NCBI GenBank assembly: GCA_038825775.1
Contig: JAWBOW010000001.1
Coordinates: 1-54,034 of the forward strand
Length of the DNA: 54,034 bases
DNA from: Candidatus Woesearchaeota archaeon
GTDB lineage: Archaea; Nanobdellota; Nanobdellia; Woesearchaeales; WAPY01
Direction of reading: 5' to 3'
Shown: positions 29,062 to 54,034 of the stretch, piece by piece
Layout of the letters: each line of letters opens with the position of its first letter
Position numbering within the stretch: position 1 is the first letter of the stretch
Program-made: the position numbers and the translations under genes
The notes under the pieces: generated by a model
The model's input: only the letters and a program-made list of their open reading frames with translations
What the model was told of the DNA's origin: nothing
Databases searched by the model: none

Positions 29062-29228
29062 AATATCACCTCAAATAAATTATTAATTTTTTTAATAAAT
29101 TTAGAACCCAAAATTGATTTACAACTCAAATTTTTATCTTTAAATACTTCCATACTCAAACACACTCGCTTGCTCGTTAAAAAGAACAAAAAAACAAATT
29201 AATATATAAATCTTACTATTAACTATAC

Positions 29229-29301
29229 TGCTCCTGCGGGGATTTGAACCCCGGTCACAACCTCCGCAGGGTTGTATACTTCCAGGCTATACTACAGGAG
29301 C
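29229..29301 (-). tRNA. tRNA-Arg (anticodon GCG)
   Basis: Hand-folded cloverleaf: acceptor GCTCCTG/CAGGAGC, anticodon stem CAACC/GGTTG with loop CTGCGGA, T arm CGGGG-TTCAAAT-CCCCG, discriminator A. No encoded CCA. Confidence 0.85.
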
Positions 29302-29317
29302 AAATGTTAAAAAAAAA

Positions 29318-29392
29318 TGGGGCTGCCCGGATTTGAACCGGGGTTGCTAGCACCCCAAGCTAGAGTGATAGACCAAACTACACTACAGCCCC
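29318..29392 (-). tRNA. tRNA-Pro (anticodon GGG)
   Basis: Acceptor GGGGCTG/CAGCCCC, anticodon stem CTAGC/GCTAG with loop TTGGGGT (G37), T arm CCCGG-TTCAAAT-CCGGG. Confidence 0.85.
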
Positions 29393-29555
29393 AAAAGGAA
29401 AAAAACTATTTCTTATATGAAATGTTAATTTTTAAATTTAACTAATTTTTTGATTTTTAAGTTTTGATTTTTATATACTTTGTTTTGATTATTTAAAACA
29501 CAAAAACTTTTAAACAAATAATGATTTATTAGAAAAAAATAAAGGGGTGGTTTTT

Positions 29556-48287: not shown

Positions 48288-48604
48288 AATTGTATTTTAG
48301 TATATTAATTTATATACTGATATACTAACTTATTTAAATATTTTTCTGTGCTTAAAAATAATAAATTAAAAAATAACAAAGAGAGAATAAAGCATAAAAA
48401 GAATAAATTAAAACAAAAAAAGAAAAAATCCTTTAATTATTAAAAAACAATTCTAAAAAACAAAAAGATCATTTATTTTTAAAAAAATCATTAATAAAAA
48501 ATAAAAATAAAAAAACAAAAAATAATTCTCAAAACAAAAAAATTTAATCAAAAACTTTAAAGAAAAACTTAGAAAAACTTAAAGATAAAAAGTTTATAAA
48601 ATTC

Positions 48605-49327
48605 TTACTTCTTACCACCTGGTTTTTCTTTTTGCTCTTCAGGCAACAACTCCTTAATAATCTCCTCAGGAATCTTTGCATCACGTAATCTTGACCTTAT
48701 AAAAGATGGTTCCTTACCAGTATATTGTGCCATAATTTCTTTTGCTTTCTTTGTAAGCTCTTCATGACGTTTCTTGATCTCCTCACTAAGTTTTCTCTTT
48801 TCCTCTTCCAATGCCCTTAATTCCTCTGCTGAGAGTTCTGTTTTCTCAAGTTCTATTTCCTGCTTGAAAGCTCCATTATCAATATCCTTTAATATTTCCT
48901 TATAATTTTTTCCCTCAATCAAAACACCCATAGAACCAGCAGTTCCTATTACTTCTTTAACAGCATCCTTCATGCTCTTGCCCAATAAAGAATCACGCTT
49001 CATCTTTGCAATCTTAATCACTTGCTCAATCCTCAAATCAGCGACCTTCTCTGCCAAAGGATTAGAAGAGCCCTTCTCAACACCAGCTTCTTTGAGAATA
49101 AGCTGAGATGTTGGTGGGGTTCCAACCTCAATCTCAAACTTTTTTGTTTCAACATCAACAATGACCTTTACAGGAACCTGCATTCCTTTAAAACTCTCTG
49201 TTTTTTTGTTTATCTCTGAAACAACCATTCCAATATTCACTCCCAAAGGTCCTAGAGCAGGTCCTAATGGTGGTGCTGCTGTTGCTTTTCCACCTTCCAC
49301 TAAAACTTGAATTTTCTCCTTAGGCAT
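48605..49327 (-). CDS. rpl11: 50S ribosomal protein L11 with an ~80-aa charged C-terminal extension
   Basis: [29 protein letters not shown] and [11 protein letters not shown] are canonical L11. The protein is 240 aa, against roughly 160 aa for archaeal L11 as I recall it. Confidence 0.9.
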
Positions 49328-49432
49328 ACGAGAAAAAAGGATTTTTGTTTTTATTTATAAAACTTTTGTTTTGCAAAAAAGAGAAAATTTTATAAACAAA
49401 CCAAAAAGATTTTTTTCAAAAACGGTGATTTT

Positions 49433-50074
49433 ATGAAAGAGGTTATTGAAAATGGGGATTTTATAGAATTGGACTTTACAGGTTTTGTTGAAAACACTGG
49501 AGAGGTTTTTGACACAACTTTAAAAGAAGATGCTAAGAAAGCAGGAATTTATGACGAGAAAGTTGTTTATGAGCCGATTGTTGCAAAAATTGGCAGCAAT
49601 CAATTATTAAAGGGCTTGGAAGAATTCTTAATTGGAAAGAAGATTGGAAGTTATGAAATTATTTTAGAACCTGAAAAGGCATTTGGCAAGAGAGATCCTA
49701 AACTTTTAAAGTTAATCTCTGCAAAAAATTTTATTAAAAACAAGATAGAACCAATCCCAGGACTAAGGGTTAATATTGATGGTATTCTAGGAACAATCGT
49801 TTCTGTAAGTTCTAACAGGGTGATGGTTGATTTTAACCATCCTTTGGCTGGAAAGAGAATAAAGTATAAAATTATTGTTAGGAAAATTTTAGAAAATGAT
49901 GAAGAGAAGATAAGAGCAATTGTAAAACAAATAATTGGAAAAGAACCGGAGAAGATTTCTATTAGGGATAAAAAAGCAATTATAAAGATTGAAAAGAAAT
50001 TTTCAGAATTAGAACCATTAATAAAAGATGAATTGTTAAAGATCAACTTTGAAGCAGAGTTTGAAAAGGAATAA
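49433..50074 (+). CDS. FKBP-type peptidyl-prolyl isomerase (SlyD-like, with insert-in-flap and a C-terminal domain)
   Basis: GDFIELDFTGFVENTGEVFDTT.. and ..VDFNHPLAGK.. are typical of archaeal/SlyD FKBPs. SD GGTG upstream. Confidence 0.85.
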   Translation: MKEVIENGDFIELDFTGFVENTGEVFDTTLKEDAKKAGIYDEKVVYEPIVAKIGSNQLLKGLEEFLIGKKIGSYEIILEPEKAFGKRDPKLLKLISAKNFIKNKIEPIPGLRVNIDGILGTIVSVSSNRVMVDFNHPLAGKRIKYKIIVRKILENDEEKIRAIVKQIIGKEPEKISIRDKKAIIKIEKKFSELEPLIKDELLKINFEAEFEKE

Positions 50075-50081
50075 AATCTTA

Positions 50082-50109
50082 AAATAATAACATTATGATG
50101 TAATTATTT
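50082..50109. repeat. 28-bp palindromic repeat A (AAATAATAACATTATGATGTAATTATTT), left copy
   Basis: Perfect copy of 51470-51497. 24 of 28 positions are self-complementary. Confidence 0.9.
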
Positions 50110-50121
50110 TTTATGAATAAG

Positions 50122-50144
50122 GACATTGTAATGTAATTATTTTT
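50122..50144. repeat. 23-bp related site B (GACATTGTAATGTAATTATTTTT), left copy
   Basis: 21/23 identical to 51444-51466. Core starts 33 bp from the core of repeat A. Overlaps the ATPase stop codon. Confidence 0.85.
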
Positions 50145-51405
50145 GTATTAAAAGCCACTTCCAAATAGGAACCACTCTAATCTCGTCAATAATTTTTTCT
50201 TCTTCTAAATCTATAATAAAAACATCCTTAACCTTTGATTTAAACTTTAAAACAAATTTTTTTAGTTGTGAAACCTCGTTAGCATTCAATTTGACCTCAA
50301 CACCAATTATTTTTGTATTTTCTTCTAACAAAAAATCAACTTCAAAAGAATTCCTGAAAAAAAACCTTGCTTCAGAATGAACAAGAACAACGTTCTCAAT
50401 TATTTTTGGAAGAATATCATTGAAATTAGGGTTTAATGCAAAGATCAAGTTTGGTGTTGCAAAATAAGCCTTTTTTAGTTTTCTATAACTTGCAATTTGA
50501 CTTTCACGATAATTAAAAACAAACTTTACCAACAAAGAAAATTCTAAATACTCAAAATAATTAGCTATTGTCCTCTTATCTCTGCCCAAATCCTCTGCTA
50601 ACCTTTCAAAATTCACAAGCATTCCAGGATTCCTTGCAATAATATAAATCAATTTTTTTAGAAGCTCAACATCCTTAATGTAAAGTTCTTCTAAAATATC
50701 CTTATAAATTATCCTTTCAACAACAGATTCTAAGAGGTATCTTCTAGCAAACTCCTCATCCTCCTCAAAAACTAACTCAGGAAACATCCCAAACTTTACG
50801 AACTTATAGAATAAAGGCATTAATTCTCTCTTCCACAAGTTTATATTCTTCTTAATACTTTTTAAGTCCTTACCAAGCATTTCTAAAAACTCTTCAAAAC
50901 TTAAAGGTTTAAGCAAAAAATCAATAATTCTCCCTGATAAACTTTCTCTAGATTTTTTCCTAAGTTTTAGAGAAGCAGAGCTGGAAATAAAAAACTTTAT
51001 TTTTGGGTATAAATCATAATAAACCTTTAACTTGTTTTCCCAATCATCAACCTTTTGTATTTCATCAAAGAAAACATAAATCTTATTATCAATTTCATCA
51101 AAAGTTTTATTCAAAACATTCTTCTGATAAAATTCTAAAACCTCCTTAACATCAAAAGTTTTCTCGTCAAAAGAAAAAAACAGGATGTTTTTTGGATTAT
51201 TATTTTTTAATAATTCATCAATTATTTGTAAGAGCAGAGTTGTTTTTCCAACCCTTCTTAAACCATAAATCATTACTATTTGCCTCTTTTTAATATACTT
51301 TTGAACTTCAAAATAAAGTTTTCTCTTATAAGGTTTTAATAGTTCCTTCCTAACACTACCAGTAGTCCACCATGTGTTAAACCTTTCCAAATCTTCTAAA
51401 AACAT
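50137..51405 (-). CDS. AAA+ ATPase of the COG1373 type (AAA_14 + DUF4143-like C-terminus)
   Basis: Walker A GLRRVGKTTLL and Walker B IYVFFDEIQ. 422 aa, an architecture typical of the widespread archaeal predicted-ATPase family. Confidence 0.8.
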   Translation of the reverse strand: MFLEDLERFNTWWTTGSVRKELLKPYKRKLYFEVQKYIKKRQIVMIYGLRRVGKTTLLLQIIDELLKNNNPKNILFFSFDEKTFDVKEVLEFYQKNVLNKTFDEIDNKIYVFFDEIQKVDDWENKLKVYYDLYPKIKFFISSSASLKLRKKSRESLSGRIIDFLLKPLSFEEFLEMLGKDLKSIKKNINLWKRELMPLFYKFVKFGMFPELVFEEDEEFARRYLLESVVERIIYKDILEELYIKDVELLKKLIYIIARNPGMLVNFERLAEDLGRDKRTIANYFEYLEFSLLVKFVFNYRESQIASYRKLKKAYFATPNLIFALNPNFNDILPKIIENVVLVHSEARFFFRNSFEVDFLLEENTKIIGVEVKLNANEVSQLKKFVLKFKSKVKDVFIIDLEEEKIIDEIRVVPIWKWLLIQK

Positions 51406-51443
51406 AATGATAAAAGAAACAAAAACTAGTATATAAATTTTAT

Positions 51444-51466
51444 GACATTACAATGTAATTATTTTT
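51444..51466. repeat. 23-bp related site B' (GACATTACAATGTAATTATTTTT), right copy
   Basis: Differs from the left B only by inversion of the central dinucleotide. Abuts the TATA-like box of the ATPase gene. Confidence 0.85.
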
Positions 51467-51469
51467 TAT

Positions 51470-51497
51470 AAATAATAACATTATGATGTAATTATTT
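51470..51497. repeat. 28-bp palindromic repeat A', right copy
   Basis: Perfect copy of 50082-50109. Core starts 33 bp from the core of B'. Confidence 0.9.
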
Positions 51498-51615
51498 CTA
51501 TGTTCATATTTTAACGCTAAAAAATAATAATGTTACTTATAAGTAGTTACAACAGCAAGCTTTATATATAAGTTATTCTTTACTAATAGCATAAATAAAT
51601 TAGAGGTGGGTTTTT

Positions 51616-54034
51616 ATGCAAACAAAAATGAAAAAATCAGAATTATTAGGTCTTGATGATATGCTAAATTCTAATGATGAGAGAAGAATAAAATCTTTTG
51701 ATGTTACAAAAGAAGAACTTGAAAAAATTGATTTGGAAAAAAAATATTATAACCCGCTTTCAAAAACAAAAAAACCAGTAATAATGAGTTTAATAGCGGC
51801 AATGGCATTACAATTTGGAAGCATGTTTTATAATCCAAAAAAAGCAATTTCTTTAGACAAAGAACTTCCAAAGGTGACATCTGTAAATCCAGAATGGTAT
51901 TCTTTGGAAAAACAACCATTAGAAGCACTAATTAGGGAAATAGAAAAAACAGACATAAGAGTTTATATTGGAAGCACAGAAGCAAAGATAAACGAGCAAA
52001 ACTATAGCTTGGACGCAGCACCATACATAAAGAATGGCAGAACACTAGTGCCTTTAAGATTCATAGCAGAAGGCCTAGGAGCAAGTGTTGGTTGGGATGG
52101 TGTTGAGAAAAAAGTAACTATTTATTATGAGGACAAAACAATAGAACTTTGGATTGGAAAAAAACAAGCAAGAGTAAACGGCATTGATTATGCCTTAGAC
52201 GTTGCTCCAGAAATAACAAAAGGAAGAACCTTTGTGCCGATAAGATTCATAGCAGAAAACTTCGGCTCACAAGTTCTTTGGAATTCCACTCTTAAAGAGG
52301 TCTCAATAATAAAAGAAAAAGAATACAAGAGAATAAACGAAAACTCTGACGCTGATAATGACGGAGTTATTTTTAAGGACGAAAAAACCCTTGGAACAAA
52401 CCCGAATGACAAAAACACAGTTTACAATTCATTAACTGATAAACAACTCTTTGAACTAAAACAAAAATATCCAAACTTAAACATATTTTCAGCATATCCT
52501 GACGGAATTACAAAACTAACATTGCCAGAAAAATACCAACTAAACCTAAACCCTGTAAGTGCTCATAACTTGGACCAAAAAATAAACGATGAAATAATAA
52601 TAAACTATGCATTGAACAAAAACCCACAACTAAAAACAAGGGAAGAATTAGAAAGCATTTGGCAAAACTTTAACACAAAATACTCAAGCTTCATAGATGC
52701 CTTAAAAGAAAACCTAAACTTAGAAACAACAAGCACAATAGAAAAAGCAGCAGAGCTAATACTAAACTTTAAGAATTTAAAACTTGATGAAAAACTAAAA
52801 ACCCAAATAGACAAAGAATATGTCAAGAGAGTTCTTGAAGAAATGCAAGAGTTCAATGAAATAACACCACTAGTATCATCCTTCAACAAAGAATTCGTAA
52901 ACCAAAACAAAAACTTCTTCTCAGAAATAAAAAACACAACACTTGACTTTATTGCAGAAATGCTCACAAAATACCCAGAACTAACCATTCAAAAACAAAT
53001 AGAACTAAACAACAAATACCCAGAACTTGATTTTTCATTAAGAGAAACATTTGAAAACCCGGACAAGGTCTCAGGACTAAGCTTGCAAGAAAAAACAAAA
53101 TACAACATAAACCCGTTAAGCCCAAACAACTTTGACGATGTCTTGAATGACAAAAAAGCAATAGAATACGCAAAAGTAAAAAACCTATCTGGAACAAAAG
53201 AAGATGTTTTGAAAGCAATAAAAACAATAACTGAAAATTATGGGCAAAAATTAGGAACAGCAGCAAAACAATTGCTCAACCAAAACAAAATAGAAGCTTC
53301 AGAACTTGATGCTCAAGCAACAACAGCAAAAACACAAGTAGAAGCAATGTTCAATGCTAGGGCTTATAAAACAAAATCTGACGGAACAAAAATAACACTT
53401 GAAGACCTGACAACAACAGAAAGGTATAAAACACTAATGCTACTAAACAAAACCTTCGGCAAAGAAGATATTAATATTTTGTTAGCACAAAGCAAAACAC
53501 TAAGCCAAAACCCGGAATTGTATTCAGAACTAATAAACACGCTAAAAACAGCATCTCACAAGATTGAAGAGCCGGTAAATCAGGAAATAAAGGACTTAAG
53601 AGTTTTCAAAAACTACATAAACCAGTGGGGACTTTACGATAACAACGCTGGAGAATTAGCAGTAAAACTCTGGAATTCTCTAAGCCAAGAATTAAGAGAA
53701 GAAGTAAAACAACACCCAAAACTCTTCTTAAGCTATGTTGGAAAATACAGGGCTTGGGCAGAAGCTGGAAAGGTAAAGATTGGAAGCAAAGAATACGATT
53801 TTAGAGAGGTTTTTGACGATATTGTAAAATTCACAAAAGACCAAATAGGGTATGTAATAAAGATGGAAAAATACTTCCAAGAGAAAGGTTATGAACTATA
53901 TGAATATTCTGGCTATGGAAGAGAAATAGAAAATCTTCCATTCATTTGGATGCAGGGCTCACCATTCACCCCGGGACTAAGCCATATTGAACTAATAAAG
54001 AACAAACTAAGCGCTGGAAAGATGACACTGAAAG
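51616..54034 (+). CDS. large membrane-anchored/secreted protein, 5' part (>806 aa, runs off the right edge)
   Basis: I checked codon by codon that the frame stays open from ATG 51616 (SD GAGGTGG) to the window end. TM near aa 55-75. Two copper-amine-oxidase-N-terminal-like repeats (NGRTLVPLRFIAEGLGASVGWDG.., KGRTFVPIRFIAENFGSQVLWNS). DADNDG calcium-binding-like motif. Then a long N/K/E-rich helical region. Not in the ORF track because it has no stop. Confidence 0.8.
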   Translation, partial: MQTKMKKSELLGLDDMLNSNDERRIKSFDVTKEELEKIDLEKKYYNPLSKTKKPVIMSLIAAMALQFGSMFYNPKKAISLDKELPKVTSVNPEWYSLEKQPLEALIREIEKTDIRVYIGSTEAKINEQNYSLDAAPYIKNGRTLVPLRFIAEGLGASVGWDGVEKKVTIYYEDKTIELWIGKKQARVNGIDYALDVAPEITKGRTFVPIRFIAENFGSQVLWNSTLKEVSIIKEKEYKRINENSDADNDGVIFKDEKTLGTNPNDKNTVYNSLTDKQLFELKQKYPNLNIFSAYPDGITKLTLPEKYQLNLNPVSAHNLDQKINDEIIINYALNKNPQLKTREELESIWQNFNTKYSSFIDALKENLNLETTSTIEKAAELILNFKNLKLDEKLKTQIDKEYVKRVLEEMQEFNEITPLVSSFNKEFVNQNKNFFSEIKNTTLDFIAEMLTKYPELTIQKQIELNNKYPELDFSLRETFENPDKVSGLSLQEKTKYNINPLSPNNFDDVLNDKKAIEYAKVKNLSGTKEDVLKAIKTITENYGQKLGTAAKQLLNQNKIEASELDAQATTAKTQVEAMFNARAYKTKSDGTKITLEDLTTTERYKTLMLLNKTFGKEDINILLAQSKTLSQNPELYSELINTLKTASHKIEEPVNQEIKDLRVFKNYINQWGLYDNNAGELAVKLWNSLSQELREEVKQHPKLFLSYVGKYRAWAEAGKVKIGSKEYDFREVFDDIVKFTKDQIGYVIKMEKYFQEKGYELYEYSGYGREIENLPFIWMQGSPFTPGLSHIELIKNKLSAGKMTLK

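What the first reader, a model, noticed from the sequence alone, without database searches (positions are those of the whole stretch)
50082..51497. Single AAA+ ATPase gene bracketed by perfect 28-bp palindromic repeats with a second site exactly 33 bp away on both sides
Seen in the sequence:
- AAATAATAACATTATGATGTAATTATTT occurs perfectly at 50082-50109 and 51470-51497, enclosing exactly one gene (COG1373-type ATPase, minus strand).
- Each copy is 24/28 self-complementary (arms AAATAATnACAT / ATGTnATTATTT around a 4-nt centre).
- A related site (GACATTGTAATGTAATTATTTTT at 50122-50144; GACATTACAATGTAATTATTTTT at 51444-51466) starts 33 bp, or three helical turns, from the outer site on both flanks. 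The order is therefore A-B-gene-B'-A'.
- The two inner sites differ only by inversion of the central dinucleotide.
- B' abuts the TATA-like box of the ATPase gene, and B overlaps its stop codon.
- I did not notice the motif anywhere else in the window.

Inference, two options:
1. Paired operators for a dimeric DNA-binding protein (possibly the DUF4143-like C-terminus of the ATPase itself), allowing looping or autoregulation.
2. Terminal repeats or att-like sites of a one-gene mobile or recombination cassette inserted between the FKBP gene and the large surface-protein gene.
Basis: seen in the sequence. Interest (0 to 1): 0.7.

Follow-up and report, generated by a model that had tools for sequence, protein, structure and literature searches.

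The report
Inserted ATPase gene carrying own operators
A 1.4-kb piece of DNA carrying one ATPase-nuclease gene of a very common but uncharacterised candidate anti-virus family has been inserted between two housekeeping genes of a Woesearchaeota archaeon. The palindromes around it are most likely the protein's own binding sites: they travel with this gene family across archaea in a strict 33-bp register, and only here do they also mark both ends of the insert.

Summary
The 28-mer occurs exactly twice (50082-50109 and 51470-51497), with 0 expected by chance. Four related sites lie in the order A-33 bp-B-gene-B'-33 bp-A'.

The gene encodes an AAA_14 + winged-helix + DUF4143 (PD-(D/E)xK) protein that matches PADLOC candidate defence family PDC-S01.

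In about 75 homologous loci from many archaeal phyla, the same kind of palindrome sits at the gene's promoter. Site centres fall at -11, -44, -77 and -111 from the ATG. Adjacent sites are exactly 33 bp apart in 40 of 43 pairs. The half-site sequence changes together with the protein's predicted recognition helix. The 5' pair (A', B') is therefore a family-typical auto-operator; binding itself is inferred.

Two groups of close relatives keep the L11-FKBP-large-protein synteny without the ATPase. The 1416-bp segment that starts and ends with the 28-mer is therefore an insertion.

The 3' pair is unique among all loci examined. All four sites are direct copies of one 33-bp unit. Joining A to A' rebuilds a regular three-site array, B-A-B'-TATA-gene. 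This suggests a circular or tandem precursor with a 28-bp terminal redundancy. That step is inferred, not shown.

I rate it a new variant of known kinds, with moderate to high interest.

The parts
50082..51497 (.). The inserted segment (1416 bp): one gene plus four binding sites. It is absent from the orthologous locus of the closest relatives.
   Evidence: Empty-site loci L085-L091. Homology to L088 runs up to 50081 and resumes at 51498-51503. The flanking large protein is 63% identical to that of L088.
50082..50109 (-). Site A: the outer 3' site (centre +42 after the stop codon) and the left terminal 28-bp repeat. In gene orientation it reads AAATAATTACAT-CATA-ATGTTATTATTT.
   Evidence: It matches the family class-I site consensus with 0 mismatches.
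50115..50142 (-). Site B: the inner 3' site (centre +9). It overlaps the last codon and the stop codon of the ATPase gene. In gene orientation it reads AAATAATTACAT-TACA-ATGTCCTTATTC.
50137..51405 (-). ATPase-nuclease gene (422 aa). Domains: AAA_14 P-loop, helical lid, winged helix (predicted recognition helix about residues 277-289), and a C-terminal PD-(D/E)xK domain with D357, E370 and K372. It matches PADLOC PDC-S01.
   Evidence: Pfam, PADLOC at 5e-65, invariant columns, AF2 model with pLDDT 91, Foldseek best match Orc1/Cdc6-like AAA+ plus winged helix.
51430..51437 (-). TATA box (TTTATATA in gene orientation), 24 nt before the ATG. This implies a leaderless or near-leaderless mRNA.
   Evidence: Read from the sequence. 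The same TTTAAATA/TTTATATA box occupies the same position in about 70 homologous loci. The transcription start site is not mapped.
51437..51464 (-). Site B': the promoter-proximal operator (centre -45), abutting the TATA box over the position where a BRE would lie. It reads AAATAATTACAT-TGTA-ATGTCATAAAAT.
   Evidence: The -44/-45 position is the most frequently occupied in the family.
51470..51497 (-). Site A': the distal operator (centre -78) and the right terminal 28-bp repeat, identical to A.
49433..50074 (+). Flanking FKBP-type prolyl isomerase gene (not part of the element). The insert begins 7 bp after its stop codon.
   Evidence: Pfam; orthologs in empty-site loci.
51616..54034 (+). Flanking large protein gene (Cu_amine_oxidN1 repeats; not part of the element). 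Its promoter region 51498-51615 is homologous to the empty-site intergenic DNA.

Best explanation
The four palindromes are binding sites for the product of the gene they surround. That product is a PDC-S01-type protein: AAA+ ATPase, winged helix and PD-(D/E)xK nuclease in one chain.

Shown:
- The gene family carries, wherever it occurs, an array of one to four 20-28-bp palindromes at its own promoter.
- The arrays keep a strict 33-bp register, with site centres near -11, -44, -77 and -111 from the ATG, bracketing or abutting the TATA box.
- The half-site sequence changes together with the predicted recognition helix of the protein's winged helix.
- The window's 5' pair (A' at -78, B' at -45, touching the TATA box) is a normal member of this pattern. 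It has the 'two sites upstream of TATA' layout seen in other DPANN copies.

Inferred: dimers, or a higher AAA+ oligomer, bind cooperatively on one face of the helix. They occlude the BRE/TATA region and so keep a potentially toxic nuclease tightly autorepressed. Because the operator is read by the gene's own product, the control travels with the gene when it moves to a new host.

Also shown: the 1416-bp segment from A to A' is an insertion into the conserved L11-FKBP | large-protein locus, and its two ends coincide with the 28-bp repeats.

Inferred, with lower confidence (about 0.45): the 3' pair is not a separate invention. All four sites are direct copies of one 33-bp unit, and joining A to A' gives a 1388-bp unit in which B-A-B'-TATA-gene forms a regular three-site array at -111, -78 and -45. 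The inserted DNA therefore looks like one unit of a circular or tandem form carrying a 28-bp terminal redundancy. Once in place, the 3' sites could still be bound and could act as auxiliary operators, as a roadblock, or as a terminator against the convergent FKBP gene.

The confidence of 0.75 applies to the two main claims (own-product operators, and an inserted cassette), not to the origin of the 3' pair.
For: - The repeat is exact and non-random.
- The protein matches AAA_14 + DUF4143 and PADLOC PDC-S01 at E 5e-65. The AF2 model (pLDDT 91) shows AAA+, lid, winged helix (H246-258, H266-273, H277-289, wing strands) and a PD-(D/E)xK domain. The best structural match is Orc1/Cdc6 bound to DNA.
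- Homologs at 63% identity in Methanoperedens-like genomes have AATTACATCGTAATGTAATT-TATA-GTAACATCATAGTGTAATTT-ATG, with site starts 33 bp apart.
- Seventy-nine further loci from GTDB genomes show the same design.
- In 52 class-I loci, site density is 9.1 per kb in the 200 nt upstream, against 0.05 per kb inside genes and 0.04 per kb in far flanks.
- Adjacent sites are exactly 33 bp apart in 40 of 43 pairs.
- Helix class against operator class: class I 45/47, class II 10/10, class IV 3/3, class III 4/7. One cross-class match was found: L075, helix class III, carries a class II site.
- A distant bacterial plasmid homolog also has a perfect palindrome with a 4-nt centre upstream of its start.
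- Empty sites: L085, L087 and L091 (57-nt spacer) and L088-L090 (123-nt spacer) keep S3Ae-MFS-L11-FKBP-large protein with no ATPase. Junction alignments place the insert at 50082..51497-51502. The large protein is orthologous at 63% identity.
- All four sites share the identical left half AAATAATTACAT in gene orientation, so they are direct copies.
Against: - No binding, transcription or expression data exist. The TATA box and start site are assigned by position only.
- The 3' pair is found in 0 of about 75 other loci, so nothing comparative speaks to its function or origin.
- The gene's GC, GC3 and codon usage are typical of the host, so there is no compositional sign of a recent arrival that would explain the perfect 28/28 identity.
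- The empty sites come from relatives whose FKBP is only 75-80% identical. Loss of the cassette in both relative groups cannot be strictly excluded, and the insert boundaries are uncertain by about 6 bp.
- No circular or tandem copy has been observed.
Confidence: 0.75

Rival explanations
1. The cassette is an autonomous one-gene mobile element. Its own ATPase-nuclease binds the terminal sites and cuts there, for example by symmetric nicks on either side of the bound 28-bp palindrome of a circular form. This would leave 28-nt cohesive ends that, once filled in after insertion, appear as the direct repeat.
For: The insert ends coincide with the outer edges of the two identical 28-mers, within about 6 bp at the right end. 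The outer and inner sites keep the same 33-bp spacing at both ends. The protein has intact PD-(D/E)xK residues and a DNA-binding winged helix. The family is spread across phyla and domains at 55-64% identity, which fits frequent transfer (PMC12988326). No other mobility gene lies in the insert.
Against: Zero of about 75 other family loci have sites at the 3' end. There is no target-site duplication. There is no second copy in the window. The four sites are direct, not inverted, copies. PD-(D/E)xK nucleases cut but do not join DNA. No circular junction has been observed. The family is nearly absent from viral contigs.
Confidence: 0.12
2. The 3' pair is the promoter array of a neighbouring tandem paralog in the donor. 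A fragment running from array 1 through gene 1 into array 2 was transferred, and the coincidence of the ends with A and A' is accidental.
For: Tandem or adjacent paralogs of this family exist; L100 has three. Arrays consist of near-identical 33-bp units, so two arrays from one donor could share an identical site.
Against: It needs both break points to fall exactly at the outer edges of identical sites, and it needs the site order to be swapped between the two arrays. No TATA box or gene remnant follows A.
Confidence: 0.2
3. The 28-bp repeats are sites for a host site-specific recombinase: Xer/dif-like sites as in dif modules or IMEX elements, or integrase att sites. The cassette is then a recombination module.
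For: The layout is superficially similar: a single gene bracketed by 28-bp imperfect palindromes, as in Acinetobacter dif modules (PMC13141974).
Against: The same palindrome class sits at the promoter of homologs in unrelated phyla and co-varies with the gene's own recognition helix, which a host recombinase site would not do. The geometry is 12-4-12 rather than 11-6-11. The empty site has no such sequence. There is no integrase in or next to the insert. The two copies are direct repeats of one sequence, whereas dif modules are bounded by sites in opposite XerC/D and XerD/C orientation.
Confidence: 0.03
4. The site array is an iteron-type replication origin and the AAA+ plus winged-helix protein is its initiator, by analogy with Orc1/Cdc6 and ORB elements. 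The cassette would be an integrated mini-replicon.
For: The arrays are phased direct repeats next to an AT-rich box, immediately upstream of a gene whose best structural match is Orc1/Cdc6 bound to origin DNA.
Against: The Foldseek similarity is generic AAA+ plus winged helix (TM 0.3-0.44, with RFC, RuvB and Apaf-1 scoring alike). The protein carries a nuclease domain. PADLOC detects tens of thousands of PDC-S01 genes, 9986 in archaeal and 29494 in bacterial genomes (PMC12988326). No extrachromosomal copy is known. The family is rare on plasmids (41 records at 32% identity or less) and on viral contigs.
Confidence: 0.04
5. The palindromes are ordinary AT-rich hairpin terminators or generic intergenic repeats, with no link to the ATPase.
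For: On the + strand, A and B together fold into one long RNA hairpin (-20.7 kcal/mol, z = -5.5) followed by a U-run just after the FKBP stop codon.
Against: The motif occurs nowhere else in 54 kb. The 5' pair does not fold significantly (z = -1.5). The motif, its register and its position relative to TATA and ATG are conserved with the gene across phyla. Relatives terminate FKBP without it. A terminator role for the 3' pair could be a secondary use, but it does not explain the sites.
Confidence: 0.02

Closest known systems
Controller (C) proteins and their operators in mobile restriction-modification units (review PMC3874152)
   Same: Both are horizontally mobile nuclease genes whose expression is set by a self-encoded helix-turn-helix function. 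That function binds cooperatively to repeated palindromic operators in its own promoter, and operator specificity diverges into groups along with the regulator.
   Different: Here the DNA-binding module is part of the effector polypeptide itself (AAA+ - winged helix - nuclease), not a separate small protein. The arrays hold up to four sites in a fixed 33-bp register around an archaeal TATA box. No methyltransferase partner is present. Binding and regulation have not been tested.
PADLOC candidate defence gene PDC-S01 (AAA_14 + DUF4143/COG1373), surveyed in PMC12988326; DUF4143 is listed as a PD-(D/E)XK family of unknown function in PMC3424549
   Same: The window protein matches the PDC-S01 models (E 5e-65) and has the ATPase plus PD-(D/E)xK layout described for that family.
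   Different: The papers I found describe its abundance and phylogeny only. I found nothing on a winged helix that recognises its own promoter, on the 33-bp operator arrays, or on insertion boundaries.
[quoted passage not shown]
   Same: Both are small nuclease-gene units with no transposase or integrase, found as insertions relative to an empty site in related genomes and bracketed by repeats.
   Different: In long target duplication the repeat is a copy of target DNA that is present once in the empty site. Here the empty site has no copy, and the repeat is the element's own protein-binding site.
dif modules of Acinetobacter plasmids and Xer-exploiting elements (PMC13141974)
   Same: Both are one- or few-gene modules bounded by 28-bp imperfect palindromes.
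   Different: pdif sites are XerC/XerD binding sites (11-6-11) in alternating orientation and are used by host recombinases. The sites here are family-specific promoter operators (12-4-12), are direct copies, and are absent from the target.
Archaeal Orc1/Cdc6 with origin recognition boxes, and iteron plasmids with autoregulated Rep (from my own knowledge, plus Foldseek)
   Same: Both pair an AAA+ plus winged-helix protein with phased repeated binding sites next to its own gene. In iteron plasmids such sites serve as both origin and auto-operator.
   Different: There is no evidence of replication. A nuclease domain is fused. The structural similarity is generic.

Membership tests
PDC-S01 / COG1373 (AAA_14 + DUF4143) ATPase-nuclease | N-terminal AAA_14 P-loop domain | tested here: met
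   PF13173, E 1.7e-35, residues 41-174. The Walker A GKT and the DE motif are invariant in the family alignment.
PDC-S01 / COG1373 (AAA_14 + DUF4143) ATPase-nuclease | C-terminal DUF4143 region with PD-(D/E)xK catalytic residues | tested here: met
   PF13635, E 2.4e-14, residues 235-373. D357, E370 and K372 are invariant in 41 sequences. The AF2 model shows an alpha/beta nuclease-like domain at 328-413.
PDC-S01 / COG1373 (AAA_14 + DUF4143) ATPase-nuclease | Match to the PADLOC PDC-S01 HMMs | tested here: met
   PDLC04787, E 5.4e-65, nearly full length.
PDC-S01 / COG1373 (AAA_14 + DUF4143) ATPase-nuclease | Anti-phage activity | not testable with these tools
   The family is an unvalidated candidate according to PMC12988326.
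Autoregulatory operator read by the gene's own product | Repeated palindromic sites overlapping or abutting the core promoter of the gene | tested here: met
   B' abuts TTTATATA at 51430-51437. In the family, sites are centred at -11 and -44 on either side of the TATA box, or at -45 and -78 upstream of it. The transcription start site is not mapped.
Autoregulatory operator read by the gene's own product | Sites are conserved with the gene across hosts and co-vary with the DNA-reading residues | tested here: met
   Cross-tabulation of helix class against operator class: 45/47, 10/10, 3/3 and 4/7, with one cross-class match (L075, class III helix with a class II site).
Autoregulatory operator read by the gene's own product | Specific binding of the protein and an effect on transcription | not testable with these tools
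   Needs EMSA or footprinting and reporter or transcript assays.
IS / DNA transposon | Transposase gene (DDE, HUH, serine or tyrosine type) | tested here: not met
   The insert holds a single ORF, and no transposase family appears among its Pfam hits.
IS / DNA transposon | Terminal inverted repeats | tested here: not met
   A' equals A exactly (28/28) but matches the reverse complement of A at only 24/28. All four sites share the same oriented half AAATAATTACAT. The 67-nt '78% inverted repeat' is a by-product of each site being palindromic.
IS / DNA transposon | Target-site duplication and multiple copies | tested here: not met
   The flanks ...AATCTTA and CTATGTT... share no duplication. There is no second copy in the window. 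The rest of the genome was not available.
Xer/dif-type module or integrase att element | A recombinase site present at the empty target (dif or attB) | tested here: not met
   The empty sites L085 and L088 contain no ACAT-N4-ATGT palindrome.
Xer/dif-type module or integrase att element | Sites are independent of the cargo gene | tested here: not met
   The sites track the cargo gene family and its recognition helix across phyla.
Iteron-type replicon | Phased direct repeats next to the initiator gene | tested here: met
   33-bp register in 40 of 43 adjacent pairs.
Iteron-type replicon | The protein is a replication initiator, and the element replicates extrachromosomally | tested here: inconclusive
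   There is only a generic AAA+ plus winged-helix resemblance to Orc1/Cdc6. No extrachromosomal form has been seen. The family is rare on plasmids and viral contigs.

The most novel reading that the evidence does not exclude
The cassette is the intact form of a previously unrecognised kind of one-gene selfish element. A single AAA+ / winged-helix / PD-(D/E)xK protein both represses itself and cuts at its own operator palindrome. This would generate a 1388-bp circular or unit-length form with 28-nt cohesive ends that host repair inserts at chromosomal breaks. If so, it would explain how the extremely widespread PDC-S01 genes hop between archaeal and bacterial genomes. The usual chromosomal copies, with sites only at the 5' end, would be decayed or immobilised versions.
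Probability: 0.12. Interest if true: 0.9.

Novelty: new variant of a known kind. Interest (0 to 1): 0.6.

Why it matters
PDC-S01 (AAA_14 + DUF4143) is reported as the fourth most common candidate defence system in prokaryotes and is especially abundant in archaea, yet it has no known mechanism (PMC12988326).

The comparison started by this finding gives that family a concrete and testable DNA-recognition property:
- a winged helix that appears to read a 20-28-bp palindrome;
- a simple correspondence between recognition helix and half-site across subfamilies;
- a fixed three-turn register, which suggests cooperative or oligomeric binding.

That is a direct entry point for biochemistry (EMSA, structures on DNA, regulated expression). 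It also opens the question of whether the nuclease is aimed at such sites.

The window also offers the only case, among about 75 loci examined, in which the sites mark both ends of a demonstrable insertion. It is therefore the best available clue to how these genes move. If the sites prove to be only operators and an insertion scar, the result is still a tidy example of a self-contained regulatory module that travels with a horizontally transferred gene.

Tried and rejected
- **Invertase / hix-like reading.** The GT versus AC centres of B and B' are reverse complements of each other, as expected for invertase crossover sites. I rejected this because all four sites are direct copies sharing the same oriented half, there is no recombinase gene, and centres vary freely (YRNR) among family sites.
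- **Terminal-inverted-repeat transposon.** Rejected: A' equals A, not its reverse complement, and there is no target duplication.
- **Xer/dif or att site.** Rejected: see the membership table.
- **Genome-wide motif count.** The window's own MAG is not in the GTDB representative collection, because no 100% match appeared. The count could therefore only be done for the 54-kb window.
- **Metagenome scan** with AAATAATNACATNNNNATGTNATTATTT. It found 14 loci: two upstream of ATPase homologs at about 40% identity, one upstream of a distant paralog, three orphan pairs in TGA-recoded low-GC contigs, and the rest single hits. None was a second copy of this cassette.
- **Viral contigs.** No motif hits and only three weak protein relatives.
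- **Circular copy.** I looked for one in a 1361-nt Logan contig of the closest homolog, L092. Its ends do not overlap.
- **PDB sequence search.** No hits.
- **Rfam and tRNA scans.** Nothing near the locus.
- **Composition and codon usage.** They do not mark the gene as foreign.
- **Literature searches** for DUF4143, COG1373, PDC-S01 and AAA_14. Only catalogue-level mentions were found.
Full report
**1. The observation**

The sequence is as described. AAATAATAACATTATGATGTAATTATTT occurs exactly at 50082-50109 (A) and 51470-51497 (A'). It occurs nowhere else in the 54-kb window, even with three mismatches allowed, and 0 matches were expected in shuffles.

The shared core ACATTNNNATGTAATTATTT occurs four times on the + strand, at 50090, 50123, 51445 and 51478. 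Outer and inner sites are therefore 33 bp apart on each flank.

The single ORF between the sites is 50137-51405 on the minus strand, 422 aa. B overlaps its stop codon. B' touches a TTTATATA box at 51430-51437, 24 nt before the ATG. An independent Logan assembly is 100% identical over 48493-52052.

Each flank is a tandem of two units of about 33 bp. The flanks can be aligned as direct repeats (74 nt, 78%) or as inverted repeats (67 nt, 78%), because each site is itself palindromic.

**2. The gene**

Pfam gives AAA_14 at residues 41-174 and DUF4143 at residues 235-373. PADLOC assigns the protein to candidate defence family PDC-S01 with E 5e-65.

An alignment of 41 relatives is very conserved (68% mean column identity). 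Its invariant columns include the P-loop residues and D357, E370 and K372, which form a PD-(D/E)xK motif.

The AlphaFold model (pLDDT 91) shows an AAA+ domain, a helical lid, a winged helix (helices 246-258, 266-273 and 277-289, plus wing strands) and a C-terminal nuclease-like domain. Foldseek's best PDB matches are Orc1/Cdc6 on origin DNA, RuvB, RFC and Apaf-1/Avs STAND proteins, which share the AAA+ - lid - winged-helix layout. No solved structure matches by sequence.

The window comes from a Candidatus Woesearchaeota MAG. The nearest homologs are only 63-64% identical. Proteins at 55-63% identity occur in Methanoperedens, ANME-2, Methanosarcinales, Methanoregula, Nanohaloarchaea, Micrarchaeota, Aenigmatarchaeota, Thermoplasmata and Nitrososphaerota. 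This spread fits the repeated transfers reported for PDC-S01 (PMC12988326).

**3. The 5' pair is a family-wide feature**

The nearest homologs (L002, L004, L005) have, immediately before their ATG, AATTACATCGTAATGTAATT-AAATTTAAATATTT-GTAACATCATAGTGTAATTT. These are two ACAT-N4-RTGT palindromes on either side of a TATA box, with starts 33 bp apart.

Seventy-nine further loci from GTDB species representatives show the same design. The layout is either site-TATA-site-ATG or site-33 bp-site-TATA-ATG. The second layout is typical of DPANN copies and is the one in the window.

I scanned 52 loci of the close subfamily with TNACATNNNNATGTNA, allowing one mismatch. The results were:

| Region | Sites per kb |
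|---|---|
| 200 nt upstream of the gene | 9.1 |
| Inside genes | 0.05 |
| Far flanks | 0.04 |

Site centres fall at -10/-11, -43/-44, -76/-77 and -110/-111. Adjacent sites are exactly 33 bp apart in 40 of 43 pairs.

More distant subfamilies use different palindromes at the same positions: TTAGTGnA...TnCACTAA, TTAGGATA...TATCCTAA and GTACAT-N4-ATGTAC. The switch coincides with changes in the predicted recognition helix, residues 275-289:

| Class | Recognition helix | Operator | Loci with the matching operator |
|---|---|---|---|
| I | DQRT(I/V)(A/S)NYFEYLE | ACAT-N4-ATGT type | 45/47 |
| II | xKxT(I/L)MNY | TTAGTGnA...TnCACTAA | 10/10 |
| III | RHKKT(I/V)RNALNYLE | TTAGGATA...TATCCTAA | 4/7 |
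| IV | KDRRVIK | GTACAT-N4-ATGTAC | 3/3 |

One cross-class match was found: L075, with a class III helix, carries a class II site. No class I, II or IV locus carries a site of another class.

A bacterial plasmid homolog at 32% identity also has a perfect palindrome (21-bp arms, 4-nt centre) 46 nt upstream of its start.

A site that follows the gene through unrelated hosts, and that co-varies with the gene's own DNA-reading helix, is best explained as the binding site of that gene's product. Its position over the BRE/TATA region and the start region indicates autorepression. Binding and repression are inferred, not shown.

**4. The cassette is an insertion**

The closest FKBP orthologs (75-80% identity) lie in contigs that keep the order S3Ae-MFS-L11-FKBP-large Cu_amine_oxidN1 protein. 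Only 57 nt (L085, L087, L091) or 123 nt (L088-L090) separate FKBP from the large gene, and there is no ATPase. The window's large ORF is 63% identical to that of L088.

Alignment shows homology up to 50081 (GAATAAAATCTTA in the window against GAATAAAATTTTA in L088). Homology resumes at 51498-51503, including the conserved AGTAGTTACAACAG...TTTATATAT promoter region of the large gene.

With 50082-51497 removed, the window spacer is 51 nt, against 60 nt in L088. Both 28-mers therefore belong to the extra DNA, and the empty site holds no ACAT-N4-ATGT site. There is no target duplication. The gene's GC, GC3 and codon usage are typical of the window.

**5. The 3' pair**

Among about 75 other loci, none has a copy of its own operator anywhere within ±3 kb outside the 5' array. 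The window's sites at +9 and +42 after the stop codon are unique.

In gene orientation the four sites read:
- A and A': AAATAATTACAT-CATA-ATGTTATTATTT
- B: AAATAATTACAT-TACA-ATGTCCTTATTC
- B': AAATAATTACAT-TGTA-ATGTCATAAAAT

The left half is identical in all four, and the spacer before each site is similar (ATAAAAAATAATT or ATACAAAAATAATT). They are therefore direct copies of one 33-bp unit. This argues against terminal inverted repeats.

If A and A' are treated as the same site, the 1388-bp unit reads B-A-B'-TATA-gene, with centres at -111, -78 and -45. That is the regular three-site array seen in L024 and L018. The insert thus looks like one unit of a circular or tandem form with a 28-bp terminal redundancy, and its ends are the ends of the redundancy.

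I regard this as the most economical account, at about 0.45. A fragment spanning two tandem paralogs is the main alternative, at about 0.2.

Whatever their origin, the 3' sites match the family consensus as well as the 5' sites do, so they may still be bound. On the + strand, A and B also fold into a long RNA hairpin followed by a U-run, directly after the FKBP stop codon (-20.7 kcal/mol, z = -5.5). A secondary role as a terminator or roadblock between the convergent genes is therefore possible.

**6. Comparison with known systems**

In how it works, the closest analogue is the controller-protein and operator circuit of mobile restriction-modification units (PMC3874152). The difference is that here the DNA-binding module is fused into the effector.

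In how it sits in the genome, it resembles the repeat-flanked, transposase-less insertions of restriction-modification genes (PMC2853133). The difference is that the repeat here is not target DNA.

It resembles dif modules only superficially (PMC13141974).

It is a member of the PDC-S01 / COG1373 family by every sequence criterion I could test. The family's defence function is itself untested (PMC12988326; PMC3424549).

I found no publication describing the operators, the 33-bp register, the correspondence between helix and half-site, or an insertion boundary for this family. The library searched is limited to open-access papers and bioRxiv.

**7. Verdict**

The sites are the gene's own operators, and the gene together with its sites is an inserted cassette.
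- The family-wide operator code appears to be new and is immediately testable.
- The bracketed arrangement is a single case whose mechanism remains open.
- Interest is 0.6. I classify it as a new variant of known kinds.

Noticed in passing
L093 2516-2575; L099 9713-9773; L101 1699-1760 (JGI metagenome contigs; L093, L099 and L101 are all from sample Ga0233431): These are very low-GC contigs (20-24%) in which long ORFs appear only when TGA is read as sense. They carry pairs of class-I-like palindromes 33 bp apart (for example AAACAATGACATCATGATGTCATTGTTT and AAATAATAACATTATAATGTTATTATTT), but no AAA_14-DUF4143 homolog is detectable on the contig. L093 and L099 also share a GC-rich element, CTCCCTTTTTnAAAGGGAGTACCCGACGAAGGAGGGGGAGGGATT, 60-90 nt from the pair. 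These may be orphan operators or a repeated intergenic module.
   Followed up: partly
L096 464-491 and 4564-4591: This 5-kb metagenome contig is one giant inverted repeat centred between two copies of the palindrome. It is probably a fold-back assembly artefact.
   Followed up: no
L100 2212-7275: A GC-50% contig carries three adjacent distant paralogs of the ATPase (24-26% identity). One of them has AAATAATGACATTGATATGTAATTATTT ending 5 nt before its ATG.
   Followed up: partly
L110 2362-2407 (Acinetobacter seifertii plasmid pAs1069_b): A perfect palindrome with 21-bp arms and a 4-nt centre lies 46 nt upstream of a 32%-identical ATP-binding protein gene. This suggests that the self-operator design extends to bacterial plasmid-borne members.
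   Followed up: partly
window 48605-49327 (-): The ribosomal protein L11 gene encodes 240 aa, but the two L11 Pfam domains cover only residues 6-136. The remainder is a Lys/Glu-rich C-terminal extension of about 100 aa. The extension is also present in relatives, whose L11 proteins are 243-259 aa.
   Followed up: no
L002, L004, L005 (downstream of the ATPase stop codon): Three related Methanoperedens-like loci share the upstream neighbour and about 36 nt after the ATPase stop codon, and then diverge into different downstream genes. A rearrangement break point therefore lies right after the gene's T-rich tail.
   Followed up: no
window 29228-29393 (-): Two adjacent tRNA genes, Arg(GCG) and Pro(GGG), are the only Rfam/ARAGORN hits in the window. 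They are unrelated to the finding.
   Followed up: no
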